Origin: Candidatus Woesearchaeota archaeon | GTDB taxonomy: Archaea > Nanobdellota > Nanobdellia > Woesearchaeales > DSVV01 | Direction of reading: 5' to 3' | Assembly: GCA_016192995.1 (NCBI GenBank) | Contig: JACPTB010000005.1 | Location: 133,503 to 197,502 of the forward strand | Length of the DNA: 64,000 bases | Part shown: positions 8,739 through 56,057 of the stretch, one piece after another | How the letters are laid out: each line of letters starts with the position of its first letter | How positions within the stretch are numbered: the first letter of the stretch is position 1 | The notes under the pieces: generated by a model | The model's input: only the letters and a program-made list of their open reading frames with translations | The model's database searches: none | What the model was told of the DNA's origin: nothing | Translations under genes and position numbers: made by a program

Positions 8739-9494
8739 TTATGGCTTAGCCATCATCCACATTATATCAAAATATTTTCTAAATGAATCAGCAACTTTAG
8801 GGTTTTTGATCAAAACTACGGTTGGCTTTTTGGTGAGTATGACGATCATCGTATTATTTTTCCAAATATTGATCTCAGCAGGTGTTGTATTTTCCATGTG
8901 CCTTATTTTAGTTAAATCAGGTCTTTTCACGCTTTCCTGAATATTGCCTCGTGCAGATTCGTTAAATATAATTTTTTGCTTTATTTTTTTCTTCGCCAAC
9001 AATAATGCATGCTTATTAAAGAAATTTCTGACTCTTTCCTCATCTTCGCCTTTGCTTGCGCCAAACACATAATTAATATCTCCTTTTTTAAGGGTATCTC
9101 TCATCATTTTATAGACCGTTTCCATGCCCTGCCAGCCGGTAAAGATTTCTGCCTCAGTTTCATCGCCAACTAATTGCTGTTTTAATTTCAATGCAGGCAG
9201 TATATTTTTAATCTGCTTTTCTTGTTCAGTTATTTTATTCTTTTTATCATTGAGAAAATCAAGCAATCTATCAGGATTTACTGCTTTGAAATGCTTGGTA
9301 TTGGCAATAATAACATGGCTCACTAACCCTTTGTTTGCCAATCGTTCTAATCCATCGTATACTTTAGACGTATGTATTTCTGTTTTTTTTATCAAAGCTC
9401 CTGTTGTGGTTGAACCTAGTTCTAATAATGTTAAGTAGATTTTGATTTCATTTTTAGTTAAACCAATATTTTCAAGTATTGTTTCAGTTTCCAT
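8739..9494 (-). CDS. TrmB-family transcriptional regulator
   Basis: N-terminal wHTH IGLTKNEIKIYLTLLELGSTTTGALIKKTEIHTSKVYDGLERLANKGLV; paralogue of 27072..27812. Confidence 0.7.
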   Translation of the reverse strand: METETILENIGLTKNEIKIYLTLLELGSTTTGALIKKTEIHTSKVYDGLERLANKGLVSHVIIANTKHFKAVNPDRLLDFLNDKKNKITEQEKQIKNILPALKLKQQLVGDETEAEIFTGWQGMETVYKMMRDTLKKGDINYVFGASKGEDEERVRNFFNKHALLLAKKKIKQKIIFNESARGNIQESVKRPDLTKIRHMENTTPAEINIWKNNTMIVILTKKPTVVLIKNPKVADSFRKYFDIMWMMAKP

Positions 9495-11247: not shown

Positions 11248-12255
11248 TTGCAACATGATGCTAAAGTTGAAGAATACTTCATTCTCCTTTCAACTCCCCC
11301 AGAAATGGATGAAACAATGAAAGAAAGAATTGAGTTCTCACATCTGATGAAACAGGAATGTGTAAGCAATAAAGAACTGGAAAATCATAGTCGAAAATAT
11401 CCTGCTTTATTTTTCAATACTTATTCAAAACAAGAAGTTTTTAACTTTCTGCAAAATAAACTTAGCCAATCTAAAACAAATGAAGAAATAGATCAGGAAA
11501 TAACAAAAATAGAACAAGGCTTGCAAAAAACAAAAAACCTGCATGAACAAATTTATGCTGAACTCCAAAATGCAGATTTGCACTATTACGCAAAAATACT
11601 TCAAAACAATGGTTTATACCGTTATAAGCTAAAGCACGTCTGGAGTGGTGCAGAGTACTTATGTTTGGATTTTATTTTAGAACTATGCAAACGAATTGGA
11701 ATTCATTTTGATGATTTTATTAAAACTTACATGTTTTCCGATATTCATGATTTTCTTTTAGGAAAAAGTGAATTGTCAAAAGCTGAAATAGAATCAAGGA
11801 AAAAATGTTTTGTTATTCACCATAAAAATCAGGCAACAAATATTTATTCTGGCGATGAAGCTATTGCTTATAAAAATAAGTTTATTATTTCAGAAGAAAA
11901 CTATAAGCAGCTATCAAACATAATTAAAGGAATGACTGCAAATAAAGGTAAAATTACCGCTAAAGCACGAGTAGTTCATGTTAAAGATTTGCAGCAATTT
12001 GCTTTAGATTGCCAGCAATTTCAAAAAGGTGAAATTCTGGTAACAACAATGACCTCTCCACTTATGGTACCTATCATTGAAAAAGCATCTGGCATTATTA
12101 CTGATGAAGGAGGCATATGTTCTCATGCAGCAATCATTTCAAGGGAGTTTGGCATTCCGTGCATTGTAGGAACAAATGGAGCATCGTTTAGCATTAAGAC
12201 TGGTGATGTTATTGAGTTGGATGGTGATAATAGTGTTATTAAAAAAATCTTGTAA
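11248..12255 (+). CDS. truncated PEP-utilising-enzyme (phosphohistidine swivel) domain protein, Rph/PEP-synthase-like
   Basis: C-terminal SGIITDEGGICSHAAIISREFGIPCIVGT...GDVIELDGDNSVIKKIL; the ORF is open upstream to 11143 with no ATG, so the start is uncertain; paralogue of 32834/34357/36141. Confidence 0.6.
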   Translation: MQHDAKVEEYFILLSTPPEMDETMKERIEFSHLMKQECVSNKELENHSRKYPALFFNTYSKQEVFNFLQNKLSQSKTNEEIDQEITKIEQGLQKTKNLHEQIYAELQNADLHYYAKILQNNGLYRYKLKHVWSGAEYLCLDFILELCKRIGIHFDDFIKTYMFSDIHDFLLGKSELSKAEIESRKKCFVIHHKNQATNIYSGDEAIAYKNKFIISEENYKQLSNIIKGMTANKGKITAKARVVHVKDLQQFALDCQQFQKGEILVTTMTSPLMVPIIEKASGIITDEGGICSHAAIISREFGIPCIVGTNGASFSIKTGDVIELDGDNSVIKKIL

Positions 12256-15689: not shown

Positions 15690-15790
15690 TGGTGGATAGG
15701 ATATCGAGCGTTGTGTTCAAGAACCACACAATGGAAGTCCGTCGGAACTTCGTTCATGCCATCTGGTCTTTGACTGGTGATTCTTGACAT

Positions 15791-17110: not shown

Positions 17111-17199
17111 GTAGAATAAAAGAATAGAATGTGGTTTATATGTTTTATTATTTAGTAAAAGACAATTAACTTTTTAACTTAATAACTATTCCACTTATC

Positions 17200-18102
17200 A
17201 TGATATTACTTCAAAGAATTAATGATCAATATGAACAAACAGAAACTGCTTGTTTAGATGATTTAGTACTACCCCCTTTAGATCTTCTTGTTACTGGTGC
17301 ACATCAGGATGATGAAGCATTTACCTTTTTTTATCAATTAGAGGGAATTAGGAAAGGTAAAAAAGTTGGTACTGTTATCGCCACAGATGGTGTAGGAATG
17401 AATGTTACTGATAGTGAAGTATCAATGACAAAAGATGAGATCAGAGCAATGAGAAATTCTGAATCAATTAAAGCAGCAAAAGAAGTTGGCATTGATTTTC
17501 TCCTGCTTTTAAATTGCCCAAGTTCTTATCTTAAAAATACAACAACATTTCATGAATTTAAGCGTGCTATGGAAATAGTTTTTAATAAAGTGCAACCAAC
17601 AGAGATTCTCACACATTCTCCTTATGATGATCATTCTACACATCTTTTAGTTGCTGAAGCAGTTGTTACTGCAGCAAAGGCAACAGCATATAAAAATGTA
17701 CGAGGATATCCTGTATGGGGTAGTTTACTTGGTAGAGAATTAGGATTTGAACCGCAAGAGCCATTATACATAACACCAAAGCTTATGCAAAGACAGGTTG
17801 CCATTTTCAGAGCTTGTTATCCATCACAAAACCTAGCAAATGACTATCCAACAGCATTAAAAGCGCGAGGCACTTTCCAAAGGATTATGCTTAATGCACA
17901 TGAAGCAGCGCGAACACGAGGTTATATTGAATTTTTTGTTGATTATACACCTATTACATCAGGTATATTTAAAGCTGATTTTAAACTTTATGCTGCTCTT
18001 CTTGAACGATTATATTGGGTAGATAAACTCAGAGAACAAGAAGGAAAGCATAGATTAACTCGTGAAGAAAAAATTGCTTTGGCAAACTCTTTTTCTCTAT
18101 AA
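17200..18102 (+). CDS. PIG-L/LmbE-family N-acetylglucosaminyl deacetylase
   Basis: LLVTGAHQDDEAF (AHPDDE-type metal site). Confidence 0.6.
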   Translation: MILLQRINDQYEQTETACLDDLVLPPLDLLVTGAHQDDEAFTFFYQLEGIRKGKKVGTVIATDGVGMNVTDSEVSMTKDEIRAMRNSESIKAAKEVGIDFLLLLNCPSSYLKNTTTFHEFKRAMEIVFNKVQPTEILTHSPYDDHSTHLLVAEAVVTAAKATAYKNVRGYPVWGSLLGRELGFEPQEPLYITPKLMQRQVAIFRACYPSQNLANDYPTALKARGTFQRIMLNAHEAARTRGYIEFFVDYTPITSGIFKADFKLYAALLERLYWVDKLREQEGKHRLTREEKIALANSFSL

Positions 18103-27071: not shown

Positions 27072-27812
27072 CTAAGGCTTTGCCATCTTCCAAAAGAAGT
27101 TGAAATACTGCATATACGCAAATGCTATCTGCTTGTTTTCAATCATAATCGCTTCAATATCATCATCTTCTACATGGATCATCAAAACATAAGCTTCATT
27201 AATATCAATAACAACAGGACTGGCATATTTATCAGGAACAAATCGTACTTCACCATTGCTAAACCCAACATCTGATCCTCGTTTGCCTTCATGATAAATC
27301 ATTTTGTTAGGTATATTGTTTCCAACGATATACCTTCTGAATTTTTCAAAATGATGTTGTAAATATTTTCTTGTTGAACCAGTGCTGCCAAAGCAATAAA
27401 TTGGTTTTTTGTTGGCAAAGAATTTTGTCAGAGCATTAATAACACCCTGCCTCCCTTTGTAATAGGTTACCGTCTGTTTTTCTTCAGCAGCATTATATTG
27501 TTTCATTAATTCAGGCAGATGCTTGTTGATAAGATCAAGCTTTTCCTGTTTTTTCTGAATAATATCCTGCAATGATTCGGGTGATGCTGCTTGAAATATA
27601 TTTTTTTCTTTTCTTGTGACATTGCTTACTAATCCTTTTTCCCGCAATCGCTCCAAAGCATCGTAAATATTAACTCTATGGACGTCTACTTTCTTTGCCA
27701 GATCACTGACACTGCCAGAACCCAATTTTAATAATCCCAGATATACTTTTGCCTCATTAATGCTAAAACCAATCTCAAGCAATAATTGCGTGATTTCTTC
27801 TTTTGACAACAT
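27072..27812 (-). CDS. TrmB-family transcriptional regulator
   Basis: wHTH EAKVYLGLLKLGSGSVSDLAKKVDVHRVNIYDALERLREKGLV. Confidence 0.7.
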   Translation of the reverse strand: MLSKEEITQLLLEIGFSINEAKVYLGLLKLGSGSVSDLAKKVDVHRVNIYDALERLREKGLVSNVTRKEKNIFQAASPESLQDIIQKKQEKLDLINKHLPELMKQYNAAEEKQTVTYYKGRQGVINALTKFFANKKPIYCFGSTGSTRKYLQHHFEKFRRYIVGNNIPNKMIYHEGKRGSDVGFSNGEVRFVPDKYASPVVIDINEAYVLMIHVEDDDIEAIMIENKQIAFAYMQYFNFFWKMAKP

Positions 27813-28545: not shown

Positions 28546-29724
28546 TTATGCAGCTTTTCTATATTGTTGCTCATACTGTTTTTCAATGCGGCCATAATTT
28601 GATTCAGGATGTTTACGTATCTTTTTAGATCCATCAACAACATCAAGCATCATCTCATTAATGACTTTATGCTGTCCTGAATCTCCAAAGTGTGTGGCGT
28701 CTTTATGATGAAGTATGTTATGTGTGTTTGCATGCTGATAAACAGTTTTTTTAGGAGGTACTAATCCAGATTTTTCTCCTGCAATGACATGAACTTCTGC
28801 ATCTCCATAAGGCTGTGTGGCGTAAAGTTTGATAATATCTCTTCTTGCTTTAGGGCTTGTTACATCATCTTTATCCAGTTTTACACCAGCTGCTTTGGCA
28901 ACATACTCTGCAGCTTTCTGATCAAGATTTGAAAGCTCCATACCAGAAGGACTTGGTTCGACAGCATAGAATTTTCCAATCCCATACTGCTTTCTTCGTG
29001 GATCCTGCGCTGCATAGATTGCAACATTGGCTCCTTCGCTATGACCCAGAAAATGATCTCTGTTCTCTCTTTGTTTTCCTGTTAATCCTGTTTTTTTGTA
29101 TAACGTGTCAACTTGCTGATAAAATTTATCCCTATTTTGGTCTCGAGTTTCATGTTCATGGTTAAATTTAATAAGATGAGGGGCATAGCCTCTTTTTCGC
29201 GCTTGCCGCGCTAATTGTCTCATTGAGCCTCGATTCTGAAAATAACCATGTCCAAGATGCAGTATCTCTTTATTCGGATTTTTTTTTAAATCACGCTTAG
29301 TTCTCCAGTTTTCAACGCCGGATAAAACATTTCCAACTGTGTTTTCATACATATTTCTCGGAACATTTCTTGTTAAATTTCTAAATCTATTTTTCCATTT
29401 ATCCCATCCTTTTATCTCTTCAGGCATTCTGTTGGTAATATCTTCCTCTTGTTTCTTAATTTGACCAACACGCCATCCAGTATATTTTGGCGACAATGCT
29501 CCACGAGCTTCAAGATTTCTCTTTCGAATTTCATAATCTGCTGCATCAGCTTGTCCTTCTTTATTTTCACCTGGATTTGCCATTGCTTCTTGGACAATTT
29601 TATCTAATTGTTCTTCAGCTTTTTTTCCAGATGAGTTTTTCTGAAATAATGATATAAGAAATAAAGAGAGAAAAGTAACTACGGTAAAGCTGATCATAGT
29701 GAATGTCACGTCCAAGATAAACAC
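28546..29724 (-). CDS. membrane-anchored alpha/beta-hydrolase-fold protein
   Basis: N-terminal TM helix; GxSxG nucleophile elbow LGHSEGANVA; basic linker. Confidence 0.4.
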   Translation of the reverse strand: MFILDVTFTMISFTVVTFLSLFLISLFQKNSSGKKAEEQLDKIVQEAMANPGENKEGQADAADYEIRKRNLEARGALSPKYTGWRVGQIKKQEEDITNRMPEEIKGWDKWKNRFRNLTRNVPRNMYENTVGNVLSGVENWRTKRDLKKNPNKEILHLGHGYFQNRGSMRQLARQARKRGYAPHLIKFNHEHETRDQNRDKFYQQVDTLYKKTGLTGKQRENRDHFLGHSEGANVAIYAAQDPRRKQYGIGKFYAVEPSPSGMELSNLDQKAAEYVAKAAGVKLDKDDVTSPKARRDIIKLYATQPYGDAEVHVIAGEKSGLVPPKKTVYQHANTHNILHHKDATHFGDSGQHKVINEMMLDVVDGSKKIRKHPESNYGRIEKQYEQQYRKAA

Positions 29725-29756: not shown

Positions 29757-29790
29757 TTATTATTATTATTATTATTATCGTAATTATTTC
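29757..29790. repeat. (ATT)n microsatellite
   Basis: TTATTATTATTATTATTATTATCGTAATTATTTC between the hydrolase and pta genes. Confidence 0.8.
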
Positions 29791-30791
29791 TGTACCTGCA
29801 TTGCGCAGCATGCAATATGCTCTTCGATCATTTTTGCTGTTGCACTTCTCCCTAAAATACTCACTGGTTTCTGCAATCCGCTTAATATAGTGCCAATCAT
29901 TTCACAGGTGCTTAATTGTATCAATAAGTGCACAACTATATTCGCAACCTGCAAATTAGGAAATACTAATACATTTGCCTCTCCTTTTAACGGTGATGTT
30001 GGACATTTTCTTGCAGCAGATTTTGGATTGACCGCAGCATCACCCTGCATTTCTCCGTCGACTAAAAACTTGTTCCTGCTTTTGACCAAGGCAACAGCAT
30101 CTTTGACAAACTTAACTTCTGGCTTATCTGCTCCTCCACTGCCATAGGTTGAAAAGGAAAGCAAGGCAACTTTTGGTTCAAAGTCAAACATCTCAGCAAT
30201 CTTTGCTCCATTTTCAGCAATAACAGCTAATTCTTCAACCGTTGGATTTGGATTTAAGCTGCAGTCAGTAATAAATAAAACACGATCATTTTTATTATCC
30301 TTCATAAAAGAAACTTCACTGACTAAAGCATCTTTTTTTCTGAGGATTCTCATAACTGGACTCATTAATGCAGCTGTTGAACAAATACAGGATCCTGCAA
30401 CAGCGTCAGCATAGCCGCAGTAGGCATACATGCAGCCAAAATAATTTTCATCTTCCAAAAGCTGCGCAGCTTCTTCCAATGTCATGCCTTTATGCTGTCT
30501 TAATAGATACAGCTTTTGGATAAATTCTTTTTTAAGCGGAGAATGTTTATAATCGATAATCTCTGTTTTTCCAAGGTCAAAGCCTTTTTCTTTGGATTTT
30601 TTTTTAATTTGATCAGGAGTTCCTAATAATACTAATGAACAGACATTATTTTTAACTAAATTATGGGCAGCTTCAAGAACACGTTCATCCCATCCTTCGC
30701 AAACCACAATTTTGGCTTTTTTCTTTTTTGCCTTTGCAAACATTAAAGCAACAATGTCTTTCATGGAATCACCTAAGTATACATTTATCAT
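29784..30791 (-). CDS. pta: phosphate acetyl/butyryl-transferase (PTA_PTB family)
   Basis: 335 aa; KIVVCEGWDERVLEAAHNL N-terminus and PTA_PTB layout. Confidence 0.65.
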   Translation of the reverse strand: MINVYLGDSMKDIVALMFAKAKKKKAKIVVCEGWDERVLEAAHNLVKNNVCSLVLLGTPDQIKKKSKEKGFDLGKTEIIDYKHSPLKKEFIQKLYLLRQHKGMTLEEAAQLLEDENYFGCMYAYCGYADAVAGSCICSTAALMSPVMRILRKKDALVSEVSFMKDNKNDRVLFITDCSLNPNPTVEELAVIAENGAKIAEMFDFEPKVALLSFSTYGSGGADKPEVKFVKDAVALVKSRNKFLVDGEMQGDAAVNPKSAARKCPTSPLKGEANVLVFPNLQVANIVVHLLIQLSTCEMIGTILSGLQKPVSILGRSATAKMIEEHIACCAMQVQK

Positions 30792-31110
30792 GTCTCTTTT
30801 TTACTTGTAAAAGAACTTGCAAACCTTGTTTGTATTCTTCTATTGTTTCACTAGAGTCTATACCTTCTTTTGCAGCTTCTTCCATTATTTCACCAACAGT
30901 CAATCCTACTTTATTTGCAGCGTAATCTAATGAGCATTTTCCATCCTTGTACATATCTAAATATTTTTTTAGAAGATATTGTTTTCTTCCAAGCTGTATC
31001 AACTCTTTTAATGCTCTTGTTTTATCTACCTGTTCTTCATGAGCTGTTTTTTCCACCATCTCAACTATATCTTGTTCTAATCGTGCGCCTAAAAATATTA
31101 CTTTAGTCAT
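30769..31110 (-). CDS. UPF0175-family antitoxin-like protein
   Basis: KDGKCSLDYAANKVGLTVGEIMEEAAKEGI helix-turn-helix typical of UPF0175; 8-nt overlap with the DUF3368 gene. Confidence 0.5.
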   Translation of the reverse strand: MTKVIFLGARLEQDIVEMVEKTAHEEQVDKTRALKELIQLGRKQYLLKKYLDMYKDGKCSLDYAANKVGLTVGEIMEEAAKEGIDSSETIEEYKQGLQVLLQVKKRHDKCILR

Positions 31111-31606
31111 GCTGTAAATCCTCCTTTATTTTTTCAATCAGATAATGGTTAAACCATCCTTCTTTTTTTAAGACTGAAATGCTCCCCAATGCTTTTTTCA
31201 AGGTAATCTTTTTGCTTTTATAAAGGTGAGTGATAATTGAAAAACTGCTAAACATAGGTAAACTATAAAGTACAGCACATTTTCGAGCTTGTTTACTATC
31301 TGTTGCAAGAGCAAATTCTTTTTTATCAATTGCAACTGCTAAAATAGATGCTTCTCCATTATCCATGTTAAAGTCATATTTAAGTTTAACCATGATCCTT
31401 TTTTTATAATCGATAATAGTCACTTTTCCCTGGTGGTATAATTTTTCAAATAATAATGCATCATAGCGTTTTTTAACTTTACCCATCATTACTTCATCGT
31501 ATATTGCTTGAGTAATATAAACATAGTAGTTTTCAACGAATGTCTCTAGTACTGTTGCTTTTGCTAATAAGATAATAGTGCATGAGTCAACTATGATTTG
31601 TTCCAT
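31103..31606 (-). CDS. DUF3368-type PIN-like nuclease (toxin partner of UPF0175)
   Basis: MEQIIVDSCTIILLAKA N-terminus; genomic pairing with UPF0175. Confidence 0.5.
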   Translation of the reverse strand: MEQIIVDSCTIILLAKATVLETFVENYYVYITQAIYDEVMMGKVKKRYDALLFEKLYHQGKVTIIDYKKRIMVKLKYDFNMDNGEASILAVAIDKKEFALATDSKQARKCAVLYSLPMFSSFSIITHLYKSKKITLKKALGSISVLKKEGWFNHYLIEKIKEDLQHD

Positions 31607-31981: not shown

Positions 31982-32803
31982 ATGGGGCAAGCAACTGCAG
32001 TAAGAAAAGTTTGGACTATTTTTGATATACATAATACTAGTGTTGTTTATGTGCGTGCTTCTTATGTTCCTTGGTATACAGGCAAGGTTATTTCAAAAGG
32101 ACAAATGATTGATCCCCATAATAGTCCAGGATTTAGGCTTGCATTAGGGAAATCTCAGTTAGCTGTTCAAGATCAATATCAAGAATGGGCAAAGATGCAT
32201 AACAAAGAGATCGGTGACTTAACACCTGATGATGAATTAGAAGCAGAATCACATTTTGTTCTTTCTGGTTTAGAACAATTAACTGCGTTAGAAACTGGAA
32301 GAAGAGATAAAATTAATTTACATGCTGCCAATGCAACCTTTGTTGTTCCCATAGCTGGCGCCAAAGAAGTTTATCAGCATGCATTAGAAGATCGTGCAGT
32401 TGATGGAACTCGTCATCTTGGCTGCGTTGCAGTTATTTCTTCTTCAAAAACAGAACAATCTTCAGCAATAGTCAGATACTTGTTAGGTGATAGAGTATAT
32501 GGAGAATTTGTTCAATCTGGAAGATTAATTGTTGTCAATGCAGTTCGTCCAAATAGAAACCTGATGCGAGATGGAACAACACTGACGCTTCCAGAATATC
32601 AACAACCACTTTCAAAATCAGATCCACAAACATGGTTAACAGCGTATGTCAATGCTGGGATTACAGCGCAAACACCAATAGTGAGGATTTATGAAGATAA
32701 ACCTGCAAATCTTAAAGCAGCGATGCTTGCTGCACAACAACTAGGTCACCATCCAGAAACATATGCTTCAGTAGTTGAGAGAGTGAATCTTCAATCGTTA
32801 TAA
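31982..32803 (+). CDS. hypothetical protein (GC-richer, no recognisable motif)
   Basis: 273 aa; GGAGT RBS-like sequence upstream; composition differs from neighbours. Confidence 0.4.
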   Translation: MGQATAVRKVWTIFDIHNTSVVYVRASYVPWYTGKVISKGQMIDPHNSPGFRLALGKSQLAVQDQYQEWAKMHNKEIGDLTPDDELEAESHFVLSGLEQLTALETGRRDKINLHAANATFVVPIAGAKEVYQHALEDRAVDGTRHLGCVAVISSSKTEQSSAIVRYLLGDRVYGEFVQSGRLIVVNAVRPNRNLMRDGTTLTLPEYQQPLSKSDPQTWLTAYVNAGITAQTPIVRIYEDKPANLKAAMLAAQQLGHHPETYASVVERVNLQSL

Positions 32804-32833: not shown

Positions 32834-34342
32834 ATGGAATACACTCAAGGCTCATTGGAAAAAAATAAAAGAAATATTAATAACATTCAGTGGTATCATC
32901 AGCGTTTTGATGGCTGTCCTTTTTTCCTCCATGTTATTTCAGAAGCAGAATCAACTAATGAACAGCGAAAACATGGTTGGATATTTCAGCATAAGGTATG
33001 CTTTTACCATAATGATCGGGCAGATTGGTATATCGACATGCTTTCTATCAATAAAATTGCCAAAGAAATGCTCGAAGAATTGCAGCAAAATCCTTATTTA
33101 AGCAAACAATTAATTGCAGCATGGTATGAAGATGACAACAAATTTTATGAGATTTGTAAGAGCATAGATCGCCTTGAGGTGAATATATTGTCAGACAAAG
33201 AATTGTTTGAGTTATTCAAAATATTCTGCCAGCAAACAATAAAGCGAGAAACCTCAAGTTCAATTATAGACGGTTTTGCACTAGGTTCAGATACTTTTGT
33301 TGCAGAGCAGATTCAAGATTTTCTTAAGATTAAAGGCAGAGAAAAAGAATTCACTAAACTCTTTCCTATCTTAACAGCGCCAACAAAACAATCTTTTATC
33401 AATGAAGCTGAAGTAAGCTTGTTAAAAATAGCATTTCTTAAAAAAGACCATCAACAATATGCTGATTGCCTTAAAGATCATCAAGAGCGCTATTTCTGGA
33501 GTAAAAATAATTATGTTCAAGCGCATTATTTAGATCAAGCTTATTTTGAAAAAGAGATTAACCATCTATTGAACGACCACAAGACAAAGGAAGATTTACA
33601 ACAGCACATTGATAAGCTTGAAAGAACGCCAATAAAAAATAAAGAAGCAAAAACTAAATTAATTAAAGAACTACCGTTATCACCTTACATTATTAGTTTG
33701 CTTACCATATCAGATGACTTTACTTGGTGGCAGGATGAACGAAAAAAATCGACGTATTGGTATATTCATTATGGATGCAAGCTTTTGGAAGAGATTGCAA
33801 AGCGAAAAGGATTTACCCTTCATCAATTAAAGTATACAACTCCTCCAGAAATTTTATCAATGCTGGAAGGAAAAACGCATTACACACACGATCAACTTAA
33901 TGCAAGAATTAAAGAATGCGCATATTATTGGAATCCAGATCAATTTGAATGTATTACTGATAAAAAACAACTTGAAGAATTAAAAAATATTATTCTTAAA
34001 AAACAAGATTACTCCAAAATTACCTCATTTAAAGGGCTCTGCGCTAATTCAGGAAAAGTTAACGGTATGGTTAAAATTGTTAAAAGCGCAACAGAAGTTC
34101 ACAAAATTGAAAAAGGAGATATTCTTGTAGCAGTTATGACAAGACCAGATTATATTACTGGCATGAAAAAAGCAGCAGCCATTGTTACTAACGAGGGCGG
34201 AATTACCTGTCATGCAGCAATTGTCAGCAGGGAGATTAATATTCCCTGCATTATCGGCACAAAGATTGCAACTGAAGTGTTAAAAGATGGTATGATGATT
34301 GAAGTTGATGCGAATAATGGCATAGTTAAGATATTAAATTAA
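32834..34342 (+). CDS. Rph/PEP-synthase-like protein lacking ATP-grasp domain: substrate-binding-like helical domain plus phosphohistidine swivel domain
   Basis: C-terminal GDILVAVMTRPDYITGMKKAAAIVTNEGGITCHAAIVSREINIPCIIGT; central WWQDERKK..YWYIHYGCKLLEEIAKRKG resembles the Rph RIF-binding/swivel junction. Confidence 0.6.
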   Translation: MEYTQGSLEKNKRNINNIQWYHQRFDGCPFFLHVISEAESTNEQRKHGWIFQHKVCFYHNDRADWYIDMLSINKIAKEMLEELQQNPYLSKQLIAAWYEDDNKFYEICKSIDRLEVNILSDKELFELFKIFCQQTIKRETSSSIIDGFALGSDTFVAEQIQDFLKIKGREKEFTKLFPILTAPTKQSFINEAEVSLLKIAFLKKDHQQYADCLKDHQERYFWSKNNYVQAHYLDQAYFEKEINHLLNDHKTKEDLQQHIDKLERTPIKNKEAKTKLIKELPLSPYIISLLTISDDFTWWQDERKKSTYWYIHYGCKLLEEIAKRKGFTLHQLKYTTPPEILSMLEGKTHYTHDQLNARIKECAYYWNPDQFECITDKKQLEELKNIILKKQDYSKITSFKGLCANSGKVNGMVKIVKSATEVHKIEKGDILVAVMTRPDYITGMKKAAAIVTNEGGITCHAAIVSREINIPCIIGTKIATEVLKDGMMIEVDANNGIVKILN

Positions 34343-34356
34343 TCACGATTGATATT

Positions 34357-35922
34357 ATGAATATAAATATCCGAGAATTAGCTCATCAGAAATGGAGCAT
34401 ACAGGGATTTAATGCCTGCGCTAATTATATTTCTCTTGCAGGAATGTCCGGAATAGAGGACATGCATAAAGTATTAGGTTATGGGTATACACAGATTCTT
34501 CTTGCTTTTAAAAAAGATTATCTTGAATTCCACTATCTTGAAAAGGATTTTCAAGATATCGGCGCTGAATTCATGAAGCGCTATCGTCAAAATGAAAATT
34601 ATTTTACTAGTCTTCTTGGCAAAGATAAGGAATTCAATGAACAATCATCAAAAGTATATCAAGAAATTAAACAACAGCTTTTGTTACATGATAGAAATAC
34701 ATCAAAATGGTCAAAAGAAGATATTATCAGACTGCATCATCAAGCTTTTGAAGCATACCATAATGCGTTATCAGTCGCTCATATTATTGAAGGCATTACC
34801 TATGTTTTGGAAAAAGAAATACTCAGCCTATTAATCAAAGAACTTCAACTTAATGATACAAAACACGCTGCAAAAATAATGAATGAATTAAGCCAGCCAA
34901 TACGACCTTCATTTATTACCGAAGAACATATTGATCTCTTGAAAATTCTTAATATAATTGTTAATAATAATGAGATTCTCTCATTGTTTAAAACTAAAAA
35001 AACAGAAGAAATATTTGTTTTACTTCCTGAAACTTTGAAGAAAAAAATAGAGCAGCATGCAGAAACATATTTTTATTATCAGCTTAATTATTATCATGCT
35101 GAAAGTCTGAAGCCATTAGATTATGTTAAAGAATTACGGGAAATGATTTTACAAGAAACTGATCCACAACAACAAATTACGCAGGAAATACAGCGTTATA
35201 AAGAAAATATAACTCGGCGGGATCAAAAATTAAAAGAATTAAAACTAAGTCAAGAAGCAAAGCAACTTCTTGATCTTTCTGTTGAAATTCTTCATTGGCA
35301 GGATGACAGAAAAAAATTCATTCTTATTGGAGCTTATTATATGCATAAAACCCTTAAGCTCATTGCAGATACTTTTGCAATCCCCCTGGAATTGCTCAAA
35401 CGTTTACATCCTCCAGAAATAACTCTTGAACTATTGCACCATTTTGATGAAGCAGCAATAAAAAAGCGTGTCGATCATTTCATCTTATTTCATTGGTATG
35501 ATGATAACCATAAACAGATGAAAACAAAAGTATTTGATGAAACTGAATATAATTTTTTTATGGAGCAATGTCGCAAACAACATAACCAGATTGAAGATCT
35601 TCATGGTTTAAGCGCAAGTACCGGAAAAGCAATAGGAAAAGTAAGAATCTGTAAAACAAAAGAAGATATTGCGTTGTTTGAGCAAGGTGAAATTCTTGTA
35701 GCAAGTATGACAAGACCTGAATTTATTCCAGCAATGAAAAAAGCAGCAGCAATAGTAACTGATGAAGGAGGAATAACTTGTCATGCTGCAATTATCAGTC
35801 GTGAATTAAATATTCCCTGTGTTATCGGAACAAAAATTGCTACAAAAATTCTGAAAAATGGCATGATGGTTGAAGTCAGAGCAAATCACGGATTGGTTAA
35901 GATAATTTCATTAATCCTCTAA
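34357..35922 (+). CDS. Rph/PEP-synthase-like paralogue (no ATP-grasp) with phosphohistidine swivel domain
   Basis: GEILVASMTRPEFIPAMKKAAAIVTDEGGITCHAAIISRELNIPCVIGT; 14-nt spacing from the upstream paralogue. Confidence 0.6.
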   Translation: MNINIRELAHQKWSIQGFNACANYISLAGMSGIEDMHKVLGYGYTQILLAFKKDYLEFHYLEKDFQDIGAEFMKRYRQNENYFTSLLGKDKEFNEQSSKVYQEIKQQLLLHDRNTSKWSKEDIIRLHHQAFEAYHNALSVAHIIEGITYVLEKEILSLLIKELQLNDTKHAAKIMNELSQPIRPSFITEEHIDLLKILNIIVNNNEILSLFKTKKTEEIFVLLPETLKKKIEQHAETYFYYQLNYYHAESLKPLDYVKELREMILQETDPQQQITQEIQRYKENITRRDQKLKELKLSQEAKQLLDLSVEILHWQDDRKKFILIGAYYMHKTLKLIADTFAIPLELLKRLHPPEITLELLHHFDEAAIKKRVDHFILFHWYDDNHKQMKTKVFDETEYNFFMEQCRKQHNQIEDLHGLSASTGKAIGKVRICKTKEDIALFEQGEILVASMTRPEFIPAMKKAAAIVTDEGGITCHAAIISRELNIPCVIGTKIATKILKNGMMVEVRANHGLVKIISLIL

Positions 35923-36108
35923 ATTCTTGAATATAATTTCCATATTTTCAGATCCAGTTCCAATCAAATTCTCTTTAGCTAATATATCAAAAAATTCAAA
36001 ATAACGTACTCCTGCAATTTCAGCTCCTTCTCGTATGGTGCATTTACCTTCTTTATAACAGGTAATTGCTTTTTCTCTGACTTTTATATTTTTCGATTTT
36101 TTCCACAT
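35911..36108 (-). CDS. UPF0175-like small protein (solo)
   Basis: KEGKCTIREGAEIAGVRYFEFFDILAKENL; on the opposite strand between paralogues 2 and 3. Confidence 0.35.
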   Translation of the reverse strand: MWKKSKNIKVREKAITCYKEGKCTIREGAEIAGVRYFEFFDILAKENLIGTGSENMEIIFKNLED

Positions 36109-36140
36109 AACATTTATATTTAATCTAAATTCTTCCTATT

Positions 36141-37601
36141 TTGATGATGGTTACTTGGAAATGGGAATTTCAGAGAAATATGGATATAATTAAACGATTA
36201 GGATTTGCTCCTTCTTTTGCAGAATTTACGGGAATATGTGCTTATACCAGCAGGAATGGCAATATCAATTTTTATTGGAATGTTGAAGGAGCTGATAAAA
36301 AATCACTTGCATTAGTTGAAGCCATTAAAGCAGACTCCTCTTTTACCGAAAACTGGGTGCATGACCTTAATAAAAAAGCAGAACAGTGGAAGAAATTCAC
36401 TGAAACTATTTATTTAACAAATTTAACAAATCCAGCAAAACTTTCAGATACAGAACTCTTTACTTTTTATCAACAATTCCTTGATTTACATCCGCAAATT
36501 GCTTCATTTGCAGCATGGATTAGAATAATTATTCATCAAGGGGTTCTTACTTTTGAGAAAATACTGAAAGAAAAAATAAAAGATGAGGCTGAATATAAAA
36601 ATGCATTAACGGTTTTGACTTCAACACCAAAACAAAGTTTTAATGGAGAAGAAGAGGAAGCTTTTTTAGAACTTGCATTTAACATTTTAAATAAAGAGCA
36701 GAATTTTGAAGAACTTAATGAACTCTCTCAACCATCATTAGCTCTTCTCACAAAACATCGGAATAATTATTGCTGGATTCCATGCGGTTATTATGATGAA
36801 CCAGCGCATGATTTAGATTATTATTTTCATCGATTGCTCCGTGTGAAGAAAGATCGAGTGCATTCACGACAAGCGTTAAGCACCTTGCAGGAACTATCTG
36901 AGCTTATTGAACAAAAACAATATGTCCTTTTGCAGAATCTTAAACTCAGCAAAGAAGCTCTGCGTTTAATGGAATGCCTCCAGGAATGTGTTTATTACAA
37001 AGATTATGTTCGAGGAGTTCTCAATAAAGGCTATTATCTTTGCTATCCTTTGTTTGAAGAATTAGGGAAACGCGTGAAGCTAAGCATGCTTGATGTCAAA
37101 TTTTTGCTTGAGGAAGAATATGAACAAGCATTGTTTTCCAAAACAGATTTTACCGCCTTGATAAGCAAGCGAAAAAAGTTCCATATAATGGTTGTTGAAA
37201 AGGGAAAACCAATTAAGCTGATGTATGGGAAAGAAGCAGAACAATTAGTTCAGGAAATTGAAGGCAAGCTTGATGACGTTAAAGAAATCAAAGGCATGTC
37301 TGCAAGTCCAGGCTACGCTAAAGCGAGAGTAAGAATTTTGAAAAATCCAGCAGACATACAGAATGAAACTCATGATTTTATCCTCGTTGCCAGCATGACA
37401 ACACCTGAATTTATTGTAGCCATGCAAAAAGCATTGGCTATTGTAACTGATGAAGGCGGTATAACCTGCCATGCAGCGATAGTTGCCCGGGAGATGAACA
37501 AACCTTGTGTTATAGGCACTAAATTAGCCAGTAAAGTTCTTAAGGATGGTATGATTGTAGAAGTTGATGCTGATAGAGGGATTATCAAGATAGTTTCTTA
37601 G
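36141..37601 (+). CDS. Rph/PEP-synthase-like paralogue (no ATP-grasp) with phosphohistidine swivel domain
   Basis: HDFILVASMTTPEFIVAMQKALAIVTDEGGITCHAAIVAREMNKPCVIGT. Confidence 0.6.
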   Translation: MMMVTWKWEFQRNMDIIKRLGFAPSFAEFTGICAYTSRNGNINFYWNVEGADKKSLALVEAIKADSSFTENWVHDLNKKAEQWKKFTETIYLTNLTNPAKLSDTELFTFYQQFLDLHPQIASFAAWIRIIIHQGVLTFEKILKEKIKDEAEYKNALTVLTSTPKQSFNGEEEEAFLELAFNILNKEQNFEELNELSQPSLALLTKHRNNYCWIPCGYYDEPAHDLDYYFHRLLRVKKDRVHSRQALSTLQELSELIEQKQYVLLQNLKLSKEALRLMECLQECVYYKDYVRGVLNKGYYLCYPLFEELGKRVKLSMLDVKFLLEEEYEQALFSKTDFTALISKRKKFHIMVVEKGKPIKLMYGKEAEQLVQEIEGKLDDVKEIKGMSASPGYAKARVRILKNPADIQNETHDFILVASMTTPEFIVAMQKALAIVTDEGGITCHAAIVAREMNKPCVIGTKLASKVLKDGMIVEVDADRGIIKIVS

Positions 37602-43380: not shown

Positions 43381-44808
43381 CTATCCATTGAAATTTCCTT
43401 CTTTAAAGCAAGCATATCTTGTTCTTATTTCTATTCCTAATTCAGTAGTTACTTGAGTACGATTATGAAGATCTCTTGGAATAAAATCCTCAAGATCTGA
43501 TAATCGTAAAGCAAAACAGTTATTTCGAACTGCTCGATAATCATTTTCAGTTGTCATTTCCGCTGAAACTACATAAATTCCTTTTGCCATTAACGGTGTT
43601 CTACACATTTCACTAAAAGGAATACCATATCTAGTGTTTAATCTTCCTGCAGAATAAATTGCAAACGGTTCAATAATTAGATCATTAAAGTCATCATTAA
43701 TTATTTCATCGAATAATCTTACTTTTATATCATATAATTGAGCTTCGTTGTCTATCTTCCCTAAAAGTACATAGAAATTAAAAGGAGTTAAATAAACAAC
43801 TTTTATACCTTTTGTTTCAGAACCTATTCTTTCTGTCTTAAAATGTTGTGGATTAGTATCAATTTTTCTTCTCAAATTGCTCCGATCAGGCATAAAACGA
43901 CCATCGTCACATAAATCTCTTAAGAGATATGGTTTAACCCCAAAAGAATACCAACTTGGTAAATTGCCTTGAGCTCGAGAGCTTTTCACTGTTCTCTTGA
44001 ATTTATCAGGAATGTCTTCTACTTCAATTATCCCTCTTCGTTTATCTAAAGCAAATCGCTCAACTACTGATCGCAATTCCCTCACATTTCCCGGCCAAGA
44101 ATAACATTGTAGAAGTTCTAAAGCTTCTTCACTAATACCTTCTAAACTAACACCATGGTTACTATACCTATCATTATATTGTTTGATAAAATATGACAAC
44201 AATGGTAAGATATCTTGTCTCCTATCTCGAAGAGGTGCTAATCCTAGGGTATACGTATTTAACCGATAGAATAAATCTTGCCTAAATCTTCCTTCTTTTA
44301 TACAAGCTTCTAAATCGTGATTGGTTGCTGAAACAACACGAACATCAACCTCTGTTATTGCAGTGCTTCCTACTCTGGTTACTTTCCTGTCTTCTAAAAC
44401 TCTTAAAATCTTTGCTTGCAAATCAGGAGACATATCACCAATCTCATCAAGAAACAACGTGCCAGTGTTTGCAGCTTCAAATTTACCACTACGATCACTG
44501 GTAGCACCAGTAAATGATCCTTTCTTATGACCAAATAATTCTGATTCAAGTAAGTCTCGTGGTATAGCTGCACAGTTTACTGTAACAAAAGGTGCATACC
44601 TTCGAAAACTATTATAATGAAGTGCCTTCGCAACAACTTCTTTTCCTGTTCCAGTTTCTCCAGTAATTAAAACAGGCGTTGGAAAATTAGCAATTCGTTC
44701 TAATGTTTTTACTAACCCTAAAATATGATTACTTGTACCAACTAAATGACCATTATTACTACCTATTGCTAAACCTGTCTCTGCATAATCAGCTACTAAA
44801 TAAACCAT
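43381..44808 (-). CDS. sigma-54-activator-type (bEBP/NtrC-clade) AAA+ ATPase with novel C-terminal domain, no HTH
   Basis: Walker A GETGTGKE, Walker B LFLDEIGD, GAFTGA-like GSFTGA, R-finger RQDLFYRL; about 220-aa C-terminal region of unknown fold; GC-richer. Confidence 0.65.
   Translation of the reverse strand: MVYLVADYAETGLAIGSNNGHLVGTSNHILGLVKTLERIANFPTPVLITGETGTGKEVVAKALHYNSFRRYAPFVTVNCAAIPRDLLESELFGHKKGSFTGATSDRSGKFEAANTGTLFLDEIGDMSPDLQAKILRVLEDRKVTRVGSTAITEVDVRVVSATNHDLEACIKEGRFRQDLFYRLNTYTLGLAPLRDRRQDILPLLSYFIKQYNDRYSNHGVSLEGISEEALELLQCYSWPGNVRELRSVVERFALDKRRGIIEVEDIPDKFKRTVKSSRAQGNLPSWYSFGVKPYLLRDLCDDGRFMPDRSNLRRKIDTNPQHFKTERIGSETKGIKVVYLTPFNFYVLLGKIDNEAQLYDIKVRLFDEIINDDFNDLIIEPFAIYSAGRLNTRYGIPFSEMCRTPLMAKGIYVVSAEMTTENDYRAVRNNCFALRLSDLEDFIPRDLHNRTQVTTELGIEIRTRYACFKEGNFNG

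Positions 44809-53588: not shown

Positions 53589-56057
<2,469 letters not shown>

What the first reader, a model, noticed from the sequence alone, without database searches (positions are those of the whole stretch)
32834..37601. Tandem array of three paralogues carrying only the C-terminal half of a rifampin-phosphotransferase/PEP-synthase-like enzyme (no ATP-grasp domain)
ORFs 32834-34342, 34357-35922 and 36141-37601 (486-521 aa) all end with a typical PEP-utilising-enzyme phosphohistidine swivel domain: ...GG(I)TCHAAI(V/I)SRE(I/L)N(I/K)PC(I/V)IGTK...DG..(I/V)EVDA..G(I/L)VKI. Upstream of it is a block (WWQDERKK.TYWYIHYGCKLLEEIAKRKG...PPEI) resembling the junction of the rifampin-binding domain with the swivel domain in Rph-type phosphotransferases. 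The first 300-350 aa are helical and highly diverged between copies. None has the N-terminal ATP-grasp (GGKGxNLG) domain that would load the histidine from ATP. This suggests either a separately encoded ATP-grasp partner that serves several divergent substrate-binding modules, or a distinct phosphoryl donor. The diversified N-terminal domains suggest different small-molecule substrates, which could mean antibiotic or xenobiotic inactivation. A fourth, truncated copy lies at 11248-12255.
Basis: partly seen in the sequence, partly recalled or inferred. Interest (0 to 1): 0.8.

Follow-up and report, generated by a model that had tools for sequence, protein, structure and literature searches.

The report
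Split dikinase modules lacking their ATP-grasp
Three adjacent genes, plus a truncated fourth, in this Woesearchaeota genome encode the substrate-binding and phosphate-carrying part of a rifampin-phosphotransferase-like kinase, members of a large uncharacterised family of ultra-small archaea and bacteria that elsewhere is encoded beside, or fused to, a single separate ATP-binding protein, though none lies in this window and the substrates are unknown.

Summary
ORFs 32834-34342, 34357-35922 and 36141-37601, plus a 5'-truncated copy at 11248-12255, each end in a PEP-utilizers swivel domain with the catalytic His. None has an ATP-grasp domain. AlphaFold models of P1 and P3 match only rifampin phosphotransferase (Rph) over most of their length, through its rifampin-binding and swivel domains.

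- About 315-aa stand-alone ATP-grasp genes flank such arrays in 38 of 84 loci, never more than one per locus.
- Arrays hold up to 11 modules.
- Natural fusions exist, from ATP-grasp plus one module to ATP-grasp plus seven modules in one ORF.

No ATP-grasp gene lies in this 64-kb window, so a partner in this genome is predicted, not shown.

The paralogues are ancient subfamilies. Swivel domains are 54-63% identical, while N-terminal parts are 21-27% identical.

A conserved gene set accompanies the arrays: Pta, a hexapeptide transferase, a GHSxG protein, HAD and histidine phosphatases, and a TrmB-like regulator. One protein fuses Pta between modules.

Substrates are unknown, and antibiotic inactivation is unlikely. 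This is a new variant of the known two-component dikinases (PpsAB, CreHI, HpeHI).

The parts
32834..34342 (+). P1, 502 aa: subfamily A, the core type. N-terminal Rph-like substrate-binding domain (about residues 1-390) and C-terminal swivel domain (about nt 34025-34339); catalytic His460 codon at 34211-34213.
34357..35922 (+). P2, 521 aa: subfamily N module, 14 nt downstream of P1; catalytic His476 codon at 35782-35784.
   Evidence: N-domain orthologues at 43% (L049) and 40% (L059) identity, against 23% to P1. 33% identical to the module fused directly upstream of Pta in polyprotein P0307.
36141..37601 (+). P3, 486 aa (ATG at 36144 is the more likely start): the most divergent module; catalytic His444 codon at 37470-37472.
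   Evidence: AF2 pLDDT 82; Foldseek top six hits are Rph, E 5.4e-15, TM 0.59; N-domain orthologue in L015 at 38%, no BLAST hit to the P1 or P2 N-domains.
11248..12255 (+). P4, 335 aa: 5'-truncated module lacking roughly the first 130-170 residues of the N-domain. The swivel domain is intact (GGICSHAAI; His293 codon at 12124-12126). It may be a decaying copy or a short form.
   Evidence: Homologues L046 and L020 align only from their residue 127-135 onward, and no upstream remnant was found.
29784..30791 (-). Phosphate acetyltransferase (Pta, PTA_PTB): a member of the gene set that travels with these arrays in DPANN.
   Evidence: PF01515 E 4e-90. Homologues lie in or beside arrays in 12 loci. 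Same position in the closest relative, L091. A PTA_PTB domain is fused between modules in P0307. The CPR counterpart u287 belongs to the PTA_PTB superfamily (hhalign probability 96.5%).
28546..29724 (-). 392-aa protein with no Pfam or NCBIfam match (cluster 'ghsg'; the GHSxG motif was read in its L016 homologue): a conserved member of the array-associated gene set.
   Evidence: No family hits. Homologues in 9 array loci at 31-39% identity; also in L090 and, by position, L091.
27072..27812 (-). TrmB-family regulator. Homologues sit divergently upstream of subfamily A genes in many DPANN loci, so it is a candidate regulator of the array.
   Evidence: PF01978 E 4e-16; cluster found in 12 loci, with the pattern 'trmb- A'.
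8739..9494 (-). Second TrmB-family regulator, 1.7 kb upstream of the truncated copy P4.
   Evidence: PF01978 E 2e-15; same cluster as 27072-27812.
31982..32803 (+). 273-aa ORF of unknown function, 30 nt upstream of P1 on the same strand; a probable operon partner specific to this lineage.
   Evidence: No Pfam, NCBIfam or PDB match. A homologue lies directly upstream of the A-type gene in L012 (33% identity, E 5e-26). A 273-aa gene occupies the same position in L091.

Best explanation
P1, P2 and P3 are the acceptor subunits of a split, ATP-dependent dikinase of the Rph / phenylphosphate-synthase type. P4 may be a decayed fourth copy.

Each protein joins a helical substrate-binding domain, which differs between paralogues, to a C-terminal phosphohistidine swivel domain, which is conserved between them.

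Proposed cycle, by analogy with PpsAB, HpeHI and Rph:
1. A separate ATP-grasp protein of about 315 aa, of the PEP-synthase type, binds ATP. It is not encoded in this window.
2. The swivel His (His460, His476 or His444) attacks the beta-phosphate. The gamma-phosphate is released as Pi and AMP leaves.
3. The phospho-His domain swings back onto its own N-domain.
4. There, a conserved set of residues (D301, R303, K304, E320, R324, E339, R358) helps transfer the phosphoryl group to a small molecule bound by subfamily-specific residues.

One ATP-grasp protein is proposed to load many different modules.

Shown here: domain content, fold, His conservation, ancient divergence of the paralogues, linkage and fusion with the ATP-grasp in other genomes, and the co-travelling gene set.

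Inferred: catalysis, stoichiometry, the existence of the partner in this genome, and all substrates.

My best guess for the substrates is polar metabolites. The guess rests on the polar and charged conserved residues and on the neighbouring Pta, phosphatase, acyltransferase and TrmB genes.
For: - **Sequence.** The profile aligns to Rph residues 698-866 and to the PEP synthase swivel at E 7.5e-46.
- **Catalytic His.** Present in 355 of 355 swivel domains.
- **Partner.** More than 7,800 stand-alone PPDK_N proteins of about 315 aa, 65-78% identical across CPR and Woesearchaeota. They lie adjacent to family genes and on the same strand in L003, L005-L009 and L090. An ATP-grasp gene occurs in 38 of 84 loci, never two per locus.
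- **Natural fusions.**
  - ATP-grasp + family N-domain + swivel: L058, L069.
  - ATP-grasp + two modules: L056.
  - ATP-grasp + three modules: P0295.
  - ATP-grasp + six modules: P0267.
  - ATP-grasp + seven modules: L037, with no stop codon in 9,978 nt.
  - Source calls: 47, 48, 86-88.
- **Shared partner.** Swivel domains are 54-63% identical while N-parts are 21-27% identical, as expected if all modules dock on one ATP-grasp.
- **Ancient paralogues.** Each has closer orthologues in other genomes than in its own array.
- **Conserved core.** A common set of N-domain residues is conserved across 314 modules.
Against: - No ATP-grasp gene lies in the 64-kb window. tblastn and Pfam scans of the ORFs of 250 aa or more found none. 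The rest of the MAG could not be read.
- 46 of the 84 loci, each up to 10 kb either side of a family gene and many cut short by contig ends, also show no ATP-grasp.
- There is no biochemical evidence for any member.
- The N-domain has no sequence match to HpeH/PpsA-type models (PRK08296 matches only the swivel), so the analogy rests on fold and architecture.
- The P3 model used an alignment dominated by P1-type sequences.
- Some organism labels of the MAGs are unreliable.
Confidence: 0.7

Rival explanations
1. The modules work without an ATP-grasp. The swivel His is loaded from a phospho-metabolite and passes the phosphoryl group on, or the module merely exchanges phosphate between related compounds. 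The most obvious donor would be acetyl phosphate made by the linked Pta.
For: Pta is linked to the arrays in 12 DPANN loci including the window. A PTA_PTB-superfamily gene accompanies them in 8 CPR loci. Pta is fused between modules in P0307. The window has no ATP-grasp gene. HpeH alone catalyses phosphotransfer from product to substrate (PMC12167813).
Against: The highly conserved ATP-grasp gene is adjacent to or fused with modules in many genomes, including L090, which also carries the Pta fusion. I know of no case of acetyl phosphate directly loading a swivel His. Pta linkage is equally explained if a module makes or uses an acyl phosphate.
Confidence: 0.1
2. They are Rph-like resistance enzymes that inactivate antibiotics or xenobiotics, with each paralogue aimed at a different compound.
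For: The fold is closest to Rph. The substrate domains are diversified.
Against: - Even natural full-length fusions score 367-377 bits against the Rph equivalog model, whose cut-off is 999, and only the end domains match.
- Subfamilies are ancient and orthologous across CPR and DPANN.
- The conserved neighbours are Pta, HAD and histidine phosphatases, an acyltransferase and TrmB-type regulators, not resistance or efflux genes.
- Four to eleven copies in genomes of about 1 Mb argues for core physiology.
- The conserved residues are polar and charged.
Confidence: 0.07
3. They are pieces of an ordinary PEP synthase or PPDK, either split genes or mis-assembled fragments, as public annotation suggests ('phosphoenolpyruvate synthase/pyruvate phosphate dikinase').
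For: The swivel and the partner ATP-grasp are closest in sequence to PEP synthase. JGI gives such names.
Against: No PEP-utilizers_C TIM-barrel domain occurs in the proteins or in any annotated neighbour. In its place is a roughly 390-aa helical Rph-like domain. True PpsA-like genes, with the swivel directly after the ATP-grasp, exist separately in L041 and L064. Curated PEP synthase cut-offs are not reached.
Confidence: 0.02
4. They are non-catalytic phospho-carrier or regulatory proteins, a His phospho-relay that senses ligands through the variable domain.
For: The swivel domain is a generic phospho-carrier. Thr at position -2, a regulatory site in PEP synthase and PPDK, is kept in 85% of modules. 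TrmB regulators are linked.
Against: No downstream acceptor domain was found in the loci examined. The N-domain keeps a conserved polar residue set typical of an active site. All characterised proteins with this architecture are enzymes.
Confidence: 0.06

Closest known systems
Two-component small-molecule dikinases: phenylphosphate synthase PpsAB (Thauera aromatica), CreHI (Corynebacterium glutamicum) and HpeHI (Rhodococcus rhodochrous) (PMC12167813)
   Same: The architecture is split. One protein carries an Rph-like substrate-binding domain plus a C-terminal swivel His, and a separate protein of about 315-340 aa is the ATP-grasp, often encoded next to it. Among solved structures, only Rph covers most of the acceptor subunit. 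The presumed chemistry is ATP to AMP + Pi + phospho-substrate through a phospho-His.
   Different: - The N-domain has no detectable sequence match to that group's models; only the swivel matches.
- The proteins are about 500 aa, against about 71 kDa for HpeH.
- The residue two before the His is Thr, as in PEP synthase, not Met as in the HpeH group.
- One ATP-grasp accompanies up to 11 diversified modules, and polyproteins occur, instead of a 1:1 pair.
- The hosts are CPR bacteria and DPANN archaea with no aromatic catabolic genes nearby.
- The neighbours are Pta, phosphatases and an acyltransferase.
Rifampin phosphotransferase Rph (PDB 5hv1, 5fbs, 5fbt, 5fbu; PMC4844700)
   Same: Best structural match over the rifampin-binding-like and swivel domains. 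Rare natural fusions in this family (L058, L069) have the same domain order: ATP-grasp, substrate domain, swivel.
   Different: Sequence identity is 13-18%. The Rph equivalog model is far from its cut-off. The family is usually split. There is no evidence for an antibiotic substrate. The swivel motif is of the PEP synthase type.
PEP synthase (pyruvate, water dikinase; for example PDB 8a8e, 2ols)
   Same: Closest sequence relatives of the swivel domain (E 7.5e-46) and of the partner ATP-grasp (341 bits). The GGxTCH motif is the same.
   Different: The PEP/pyruvate-binding TIM barrel is absent and an unrelated helical domain stands in its place, N-terminal to the swivel.
Prodigiosin and undecylprodigiosin ligases PigC and RedH, and glucan water dikinase
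   Same: These also combine an ATP-grasp and a swivel His with a non-pyruvate substrate domain. They show that the scaffold is reused for varied chemistry: carbonyl activation and polymer phosphorylation.
   Different: Both are single polypeptides. Their curated models match only the end domains here. Their substrate domains and biological contexts differ.

Membership tests
Two-component dikinases (PpsAB / CreHI / HpeHI type) | Acceptor subunit made of an Rph-like substrate-binding domain followed by a C-terminal phosphohistidine swivel domain, with no ATP-grasp | tested here: met
   Pfam finds only PF00391 at the C-terminus. The AF2 models of P1 and P3 match Rph over the substrate and swivel domains.
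Two-component dikinases (PpsAB / CreHI / HpeHI type) | A separately encoded ATP-grasp (PPDK_N) subunit in the same genome, usually adjacent | tested here: inconclusive
   Absent from the 64-kb window. Present next to or fused with family members in 38 of 84 related loci. The rest of this MAG could not be read.
Two-component dikinases (PpsAB / CreHI / HpeHI type) | Conserved catalytic His in the swivel motif | tested here: met
   H460 is invariant in 50 sequences. 355 of 355 complete swivel domains keep it.
Two-component dikinases (PpsAB / CreHI / HpeHI type) | Sequence homology of the substrate-binding domain to PpsA, CreH and HpeH (about 45% identity among those three) | tested here: not met
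   The NCBIfam PRK08296 models (about 600 aa with a C-terminal swivel) align only to the last 110 or so residues. My assignment of PRK08296 to the PpsA/HpeH group is from memory, not tested. No Pfam or NCBIfam model covers the N-domain.
Two-component dikinases (PpsAB / CreHI / HpeHI type) | ATP-dependent phosphorylation of a small molecule, giving AMP + Pi | not testable with these tools
   Needs enzymology.
Rifampin phosphotransferase (Rph) | Score at or above the curated cut-off of the Rph equivalog model (NF041857, 999 bits), covering all three domains in one polypeptide | tested here: not met
   P1-P4 score 59-65 bits, on the C-terminal 100-215 residues only. The natural fusions L058 and L069 score 367-377 bits, on the ATP-grasp and swivel only.
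Rifampin phosphotransferase (Rph) | Rifampin-binding-domain fold | tested here: met
PEP synthase / PPDK | C-terminal PEP/pyruvate-binding TIM-barrel domain (PEP-utilizers_C, PF02896) | tested here: not met
   No PF02896 hit in P1-P4, in the fusions or in annotated neighbours.
PEP synthase / PPDK | Curated whole-protein cut-off (NF005057, 598 bits; TIGR01418, 740 bits) | tested here: not met
   P1-P4 score 106-130 bits. The fusions score 454-461 bits.
PigC / RedH ligases | Curated cut-off (1300 / 1350 bits) | tested here: not met
   P1-P4 score 59-101 bits. The fusions score about 310-319 bits.
Known anti-phage defence proteins (PADLOC) | Match to a PADLOC model | tested here: not met
   No meaningful hit.

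The most novel reading that the evidence does not exclude
CPR bacteria and DPANN archaea share a modular phosphorylation platform in which one conserved ATP-grasp protein charges the swivel His of many diversified acceptor modules, sometimes all strung on one polyprotein of more than 3,300 aa. At least one module would phosphorylate a carboxylate to an acyl phosphate. The co-encoded or fused Pta would then convert that to an acyl-CoA for the neighbouring hexapeptide acyltransferase. This would be the first acyl-phosphate-forming dikinase, and a previously unrecognised route by which these genome-reduced symbionts capture and activate scavenged metabolites.
Probability: 0.15. Interest if true: 0.85.

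Novelty: new variant of a known kind. Interest (0 to 1): 0.7.

Why it matters
CPR bacteria and DPANN archaea have genomes of about 1 Mb and very few biosynthetic pathways. Even so, many of them keep four to eleven diverged copies of this roughly 500-aa module plus one highly conserved ATP-grasp gene. That is a large investment for such small genomes, so the function is probably central to their scavenging way of life.

Public annotation calls these genes PEP synthase, PPDK or pyruvate, water dikinase. One DPANN study inferred phenol degradation from genes annotated as phenylphosphate synthase (PMC8091004); I did not check whether those genes belong to this family. If they do, metabolic reconstructions that count such genes as gluconeogenic or aromatic-degrading enzymes are probably wrong.

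The work gives a testable model: one ATP-grasp, many acceptor modules, and a linked set of Pta, phosphatase and acyltransferase genes. It also supplies natural fusion proteins that should make expression and substrate discovery easier.

The known two-component dikinases would then extend beyond aromatic catabolism in a few cultivated bacteria to a family shared across the two domains.

Tried and rejected
**Dead ends**
- Looking for the ATP-grasp in the window. tblastn with the L002 and L003 ATP-grasp sequences and Pfam scans of the ORFs of 250 aa or more found none.
- Extending the window's own contig. The NCBI gene call for P1 is not on record. Genes at the window edges lie only on short Logan contigs. 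The presence of a partner in this MAG therefore stays open.
- The afdb50 fold library was not available.
- Literature. Six of ten searches found no paper that describes this family. They found the two-component dikinase papers and one DPANN paper that annotates 'phenylphosphate synthase' genes.
- The 273-aa ORF upstream of P1 and the 392-aa GHSxG-cluster protein have no Pfam, NCBIfam or PDB sequence match.

**Readings considered and rejected**
- Divergent ATP-grasp in the N-terminus: the fold is helical and Rph-like.
- Split PEP synthase: there is no TIM barrel.
- Recent tandem duplication: each paralogue has closer orthologues elsewhere.
- Defence system: PADLOC is negative.
- Read-through artefact for the polyproteins: L037 has no stop codon of any kind in 9,978 nt. 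L090 translates exactly to P0307. P0267 comes from an organism in which UGA encodes Gly, shown by Trp at conserved Gly positions, so its true stop codons remain valid.

**No clear result**
- No single module subfamily sits consistently next to Pta.

Full report
**1. Observation**

The window is AT-rich (GC 0.29-0.38). It is archaeal: it has intron-containing tRNAs, and P1 is 100% identical to a protein of a Candidatus Woesearchaeota MAG.

The four ORFs exist as described. Each carries one PF00391 swivel domain at its C-terminus (E about 1e-25) and no PPDK_N domain. NCBIfam models for PEP synthase, PPDK, Rph, PigC/RedH and PRK08296 all align only to the last 100-240 residues and fall far below their curated cut-offs.

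The catalytic motif is GGITCHAAI in P1-P3 and GGICSHAAI in P4. P1 and P2 are 14 nt apart. P2 and P3 are 218 nt apart, with a 65-aa antisense ORF in the gap.

**2. What the proteins are**

P1 belongs to a large family of about 500 aa. The word-indexed search returned more than 4,600 hits, with full-length identity of 45-50% in Woesearchaeota, Nanoarchaeota and many Patescibacteria. Sources name them only 'hypothetical', 'PEP-utilizing enzyme' or 'phosphohistidine swiveling domain-containing protein'.

The N-domain alone (P1 residues 1-388) finds 1,151 representatives of 50%-identity clusters at E <= 1e-3. No Pfam or NCBIfam model covers it.

An AlphaFold model of P1 is confident (pLDDT 94, pTM 0.90). 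It shows a small beta element, then long helices up to about residue 360, then the swivel fold.
- With Foldseek, the top six hits are all Rph (E about 1e-12, TM 0.52-0.57 for the conformers in which the swivel docks on the rifampin-binding domain). Every other hit covers only the swivel.
- P3 is the most divergent paralogue. Its model (pLDDT 82) gives the same result. The caveat is that its alignment was dominated by P1-type sequences.

Rph consists of an ATP-grasp (residues 1-314), a rifampin-binding domain (327-754) and a swivel (767-865) (PMC4844700). The family profile aligns collinearly to Rph residues 698-866. The N-terminus is therefore an Rph-like substrate domain and not a degenerate ATP-grasp.

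**3. The missing ATP-grasp**

Split dikinases of this build are already known. In PpsAB, CreHI and HpeHI, one protein carries the substrate and swivel domains and a second protein is the ATP-grasp. For HpeH, too, Rph is the only structure covering most of the protein (PMC12167813).

Related loci show the same arrangement here:
- In Woesearchaeota loci L005-L007, a 314-aa PPDK_N gene lies directly upstream of a 501-aa family member.
- In L008 and L009, one ATP-grasp gene heads three modules.
- In L003, an ATP-grasp gene lies about 3.6 kb downstream of a run of five modules; two more modules lie further upstream.

A search with the ATP-grasp domain returned more than 7,800 proteins. Most are about 312-320 aa with PPDK_N only, and they are 65-78% identical across CPR and Woesearchaeota. 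They are of the PEP-synthase type and not the PPDK type (341 against 64 bits).

I scanned 77 loci from species-representative genomes plus the earlier loci with HMMs for the N-domain, the swivel and the ATP-grasp.
- The median is 4 modules per locus (each locus up to 10 kb either side of a family gene) and the maximum is 11.
- 45 of the 77 loci have three or more modules.
- 38 of the 84 non-redundant loci contain an ATP-grasp gene. It is nearly always on the same strand as the modules, most often at one end of the array, and there are never two.

Natural fusions tie the parts together:

| Protein or locus | Content |
|---|---|
| L058, L069 | ATP-grasp + family N-domain + swivel |
| L056 | ATP-grasp + two modules |
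| P0295 | ATP-grasp + three modules |
| P0267 | ATP-grasp + six swivel modules |
| L037 | ATP-grasp + seven modules, no stop codon in 9,978 nt |

In the window itself, no ATP-grasp gene was found by tblastn or by Pfam scans of the ORFs of 250 aa or more. The contig could not be extended. L010 shows the reverse case, an ATP-grasp gene with no module nearby, so unlinked arrangements do occur.

**4. The paralogues are old and specialised**

| Comparison | Identity |
|---|---|
| Swivel domains among P1-P3 | 54-63% |
| N-terminal parts among P1-P3 | 21-27% |

By BLAST, the N-domains of P1 and P2 are 23% identical, and P3 finds neither of them.

Each paralogue nevertheless has a clear orthologue elsewhere: P1 at 46%, P2 at 43% and P3 at 38% N-domain identity.

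Clustering 348 modules gave 15 subfamilies and many singletons. P1 falls in the largest, subfamily A, with 47 members.

Over 314 modules of all subfamilies, a small polar set is conserved: W222, D301, R303, K304, E320, R324, E339 and R358. The other motifs of subfamily A are not shared: WYHQRFDG, SSSIIDGFALGTD, NNY and TPxxNK.

This pattern fits a common phosphotransfer core with a subfamily-specific substrate pocket. The conserved swivel fits docking on one shared ATP-grasp. All 355 complete swivel domains keep the His, and Thr at position -2 is kept in 85% of them.

P4 lacks roughly the first 130-170 residues of the N-domain, with no remnant upstream.

**5. Conserved company**

Clustering the other genes in and around the arrays found recurrent partners:

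| Partner | Loci |
|---|---|
| HAD phosphatase | 15 |
| Hexapeptide-repeat transferase | 13 |
| Pta | 12, including the window |
| TrmB-family regulator | 12, with two copies in the window |
| Histidine-phosphatase-like proteins (two clusters; only the 7-locus one has a Pfam His_Phos_1 hit) | 10 and 7 |
| Unannotated GHSxG-cluster protein | 9, including the window ORF 28546-29724 |
| Further HAD-like proteins | 8 and 6 |
| 287-aa protein in CPR (u287) | 8 |

The 287-aa CPR protein matches Mmp4/MtxX. By profile-profile comparison it belongs to the PTA_PTB superfamily (probability 96.5%, E 9e-10).

DPANN loci repeat the order 'trmB(-) A hexa ghsg HAD-like pta', with an ATP-grasp gene in some of them. 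The window has 'trmB(-) ghsg(-) pta(-) | 273-aa ORF, A, N, P3', with a toxin-antitoxin-like pair inserted. The closest relative, L091 (80% identity for P1), has the same layout without that insertion.

P0307 is a single 1,836-aa protein: a module 33% identical to P2, then PTA_PTB (PF01515, E 4e-70), then two more modules. In its contig it is followed by the hexapeptide transferase, the GHSxG-like protein, the HAD-like protein and a stand-alone ATP-grasp.

The window lacks the hexapeptide transferase and the HAD-like genes.

**6. Mechanism and function**

The best-supported reading is a split dikinase in which one ATP-grasp serves many acceptor modules (confidence about 0.7).

Substrates are unknown. 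Polar conserved residues, phosphatases, a sugar-type regulator and the Pta link all point to metabolites and away from antibiotics.

The Pta linkage and fusion allow two further readings:
- A module makes an acyl phosphate that Pta converts to acyl-CoA. This is my novel case, at about 0.15.
- Acetyl phosphate from Pta is an alternative phosphoryl donor. This is a rival, at about 0.1.

**7. Novelty**

I found no paper that describes this family. A DPANN metagenome study annotated 'phenylphosphate synthase' genes, found no downstream pathway and proposed novel aromatic degradation (PMC8091004). Locus L014, from an isolate named DPANNHV, carries nine modules and an ATP-grasp.

The principle of a two-component dikinase is known. 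What is new:
- the N-domain family itself;
- the one-to-many organisation, including polyproteins;
- its spread across CPR and DPANN;
- its fixed gene company.

I therefore rate it a new variant of a known kind.

Noticed in passing
window 43381-44808 (-): A 475-aa protein with a strong Sigma-54 interaction domain (PF00158, E 8e-70) plus an AAA lid, in an archaeal (DPANN) genome. Archaea have no sigma-54, so this is probably a bacterial transfer or an AAA+ protein used for something other than sigma-54 activation.
   Followed up: no
window 53589-56039 (-): The DNA gyrase B gene is interrupted by an intein (Intein_splicing PF14890, residues 434-613) that splits the Toprim region.
   Followed up: no
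window 30769-31606 (-): A toxin-antitoxin-like pair (113-aa UPF0175-like and an overlapping 167-aa ORF) sits between pta and the 273-aa ORF upstream of P1. It is absent from that position in the closest relative (L091), so it is a recent insertion into the divergent promoter region.
   Followed up: partly
window 35911-36108 (-): A 65-aa antisense ORF fills the 218-nt gap between P2 and P3 and overlaps the P2 stop codon. It may interrupt co-transcription of P3 with P1 and P2.
   Followed up: no
window 32834-33037: The public gene call for P1 (P0001, 434 aa) starts 68 codons too late. It removes the WYHQRFDGxP motif, which is nearly invariant in homologues that align from residue 1.
   Followed up: yes
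L037 2-9979 (+) (Parcubacteria MAG JBDKJL010000038.1): A stop-free ORF of at least 3,326 aa encodes one ATP-grasp domain followed by seven modules, each ending in a swivel domain. A single stop codon then separates it from an eighth module in the same frame.
   Followed up: yes
L090 4315-9825 (+) (protein P0307): A single 1,836-aa protein with the order module, PTA_PTB, module, module. It is followed by the hexapeptide transferase, the GHSxG-like protein, the HAD-like protein and a stand-alone ATP-grasp gene.
   Followed up: yes
protein P0267 (2,648 aa): Trp appears at positions that are invariant Gly elsewhere (for example EGWITCHAAI). The source organism therefore reads UGA as Gly (code 25) and the protein was translated with a Trp-type code. 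The polyprotein architecture itself is not affected.
   Followed up: partly
window 9502-10590 (-) and 8739-9494 (-): A RhuM-family gene and a second TrmB-like regulator lie just upstream of the truncated copy P4. This hints that the P4 region is a rearranged or mobile remnant of another array.
   Followed up: no
P3 residues 364-457; also P0307, P0295, P0241: Recurrent faint Pfam matches to UDP-GlcNAc 2-epimerase (PF02350, profile positions about 173-284) over the linker and the start of the swivel domain. This is probably a local fold resemblance.
   Followed up: no
window 14520-18102: A ROK-family kinase, a GFO/IDH/MocA oxidoreductase and a PIG-L-type deacetylase lie together, a small sugar or amino-sugar gene group in the same window as the dikinase modules.
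   Followed up: no
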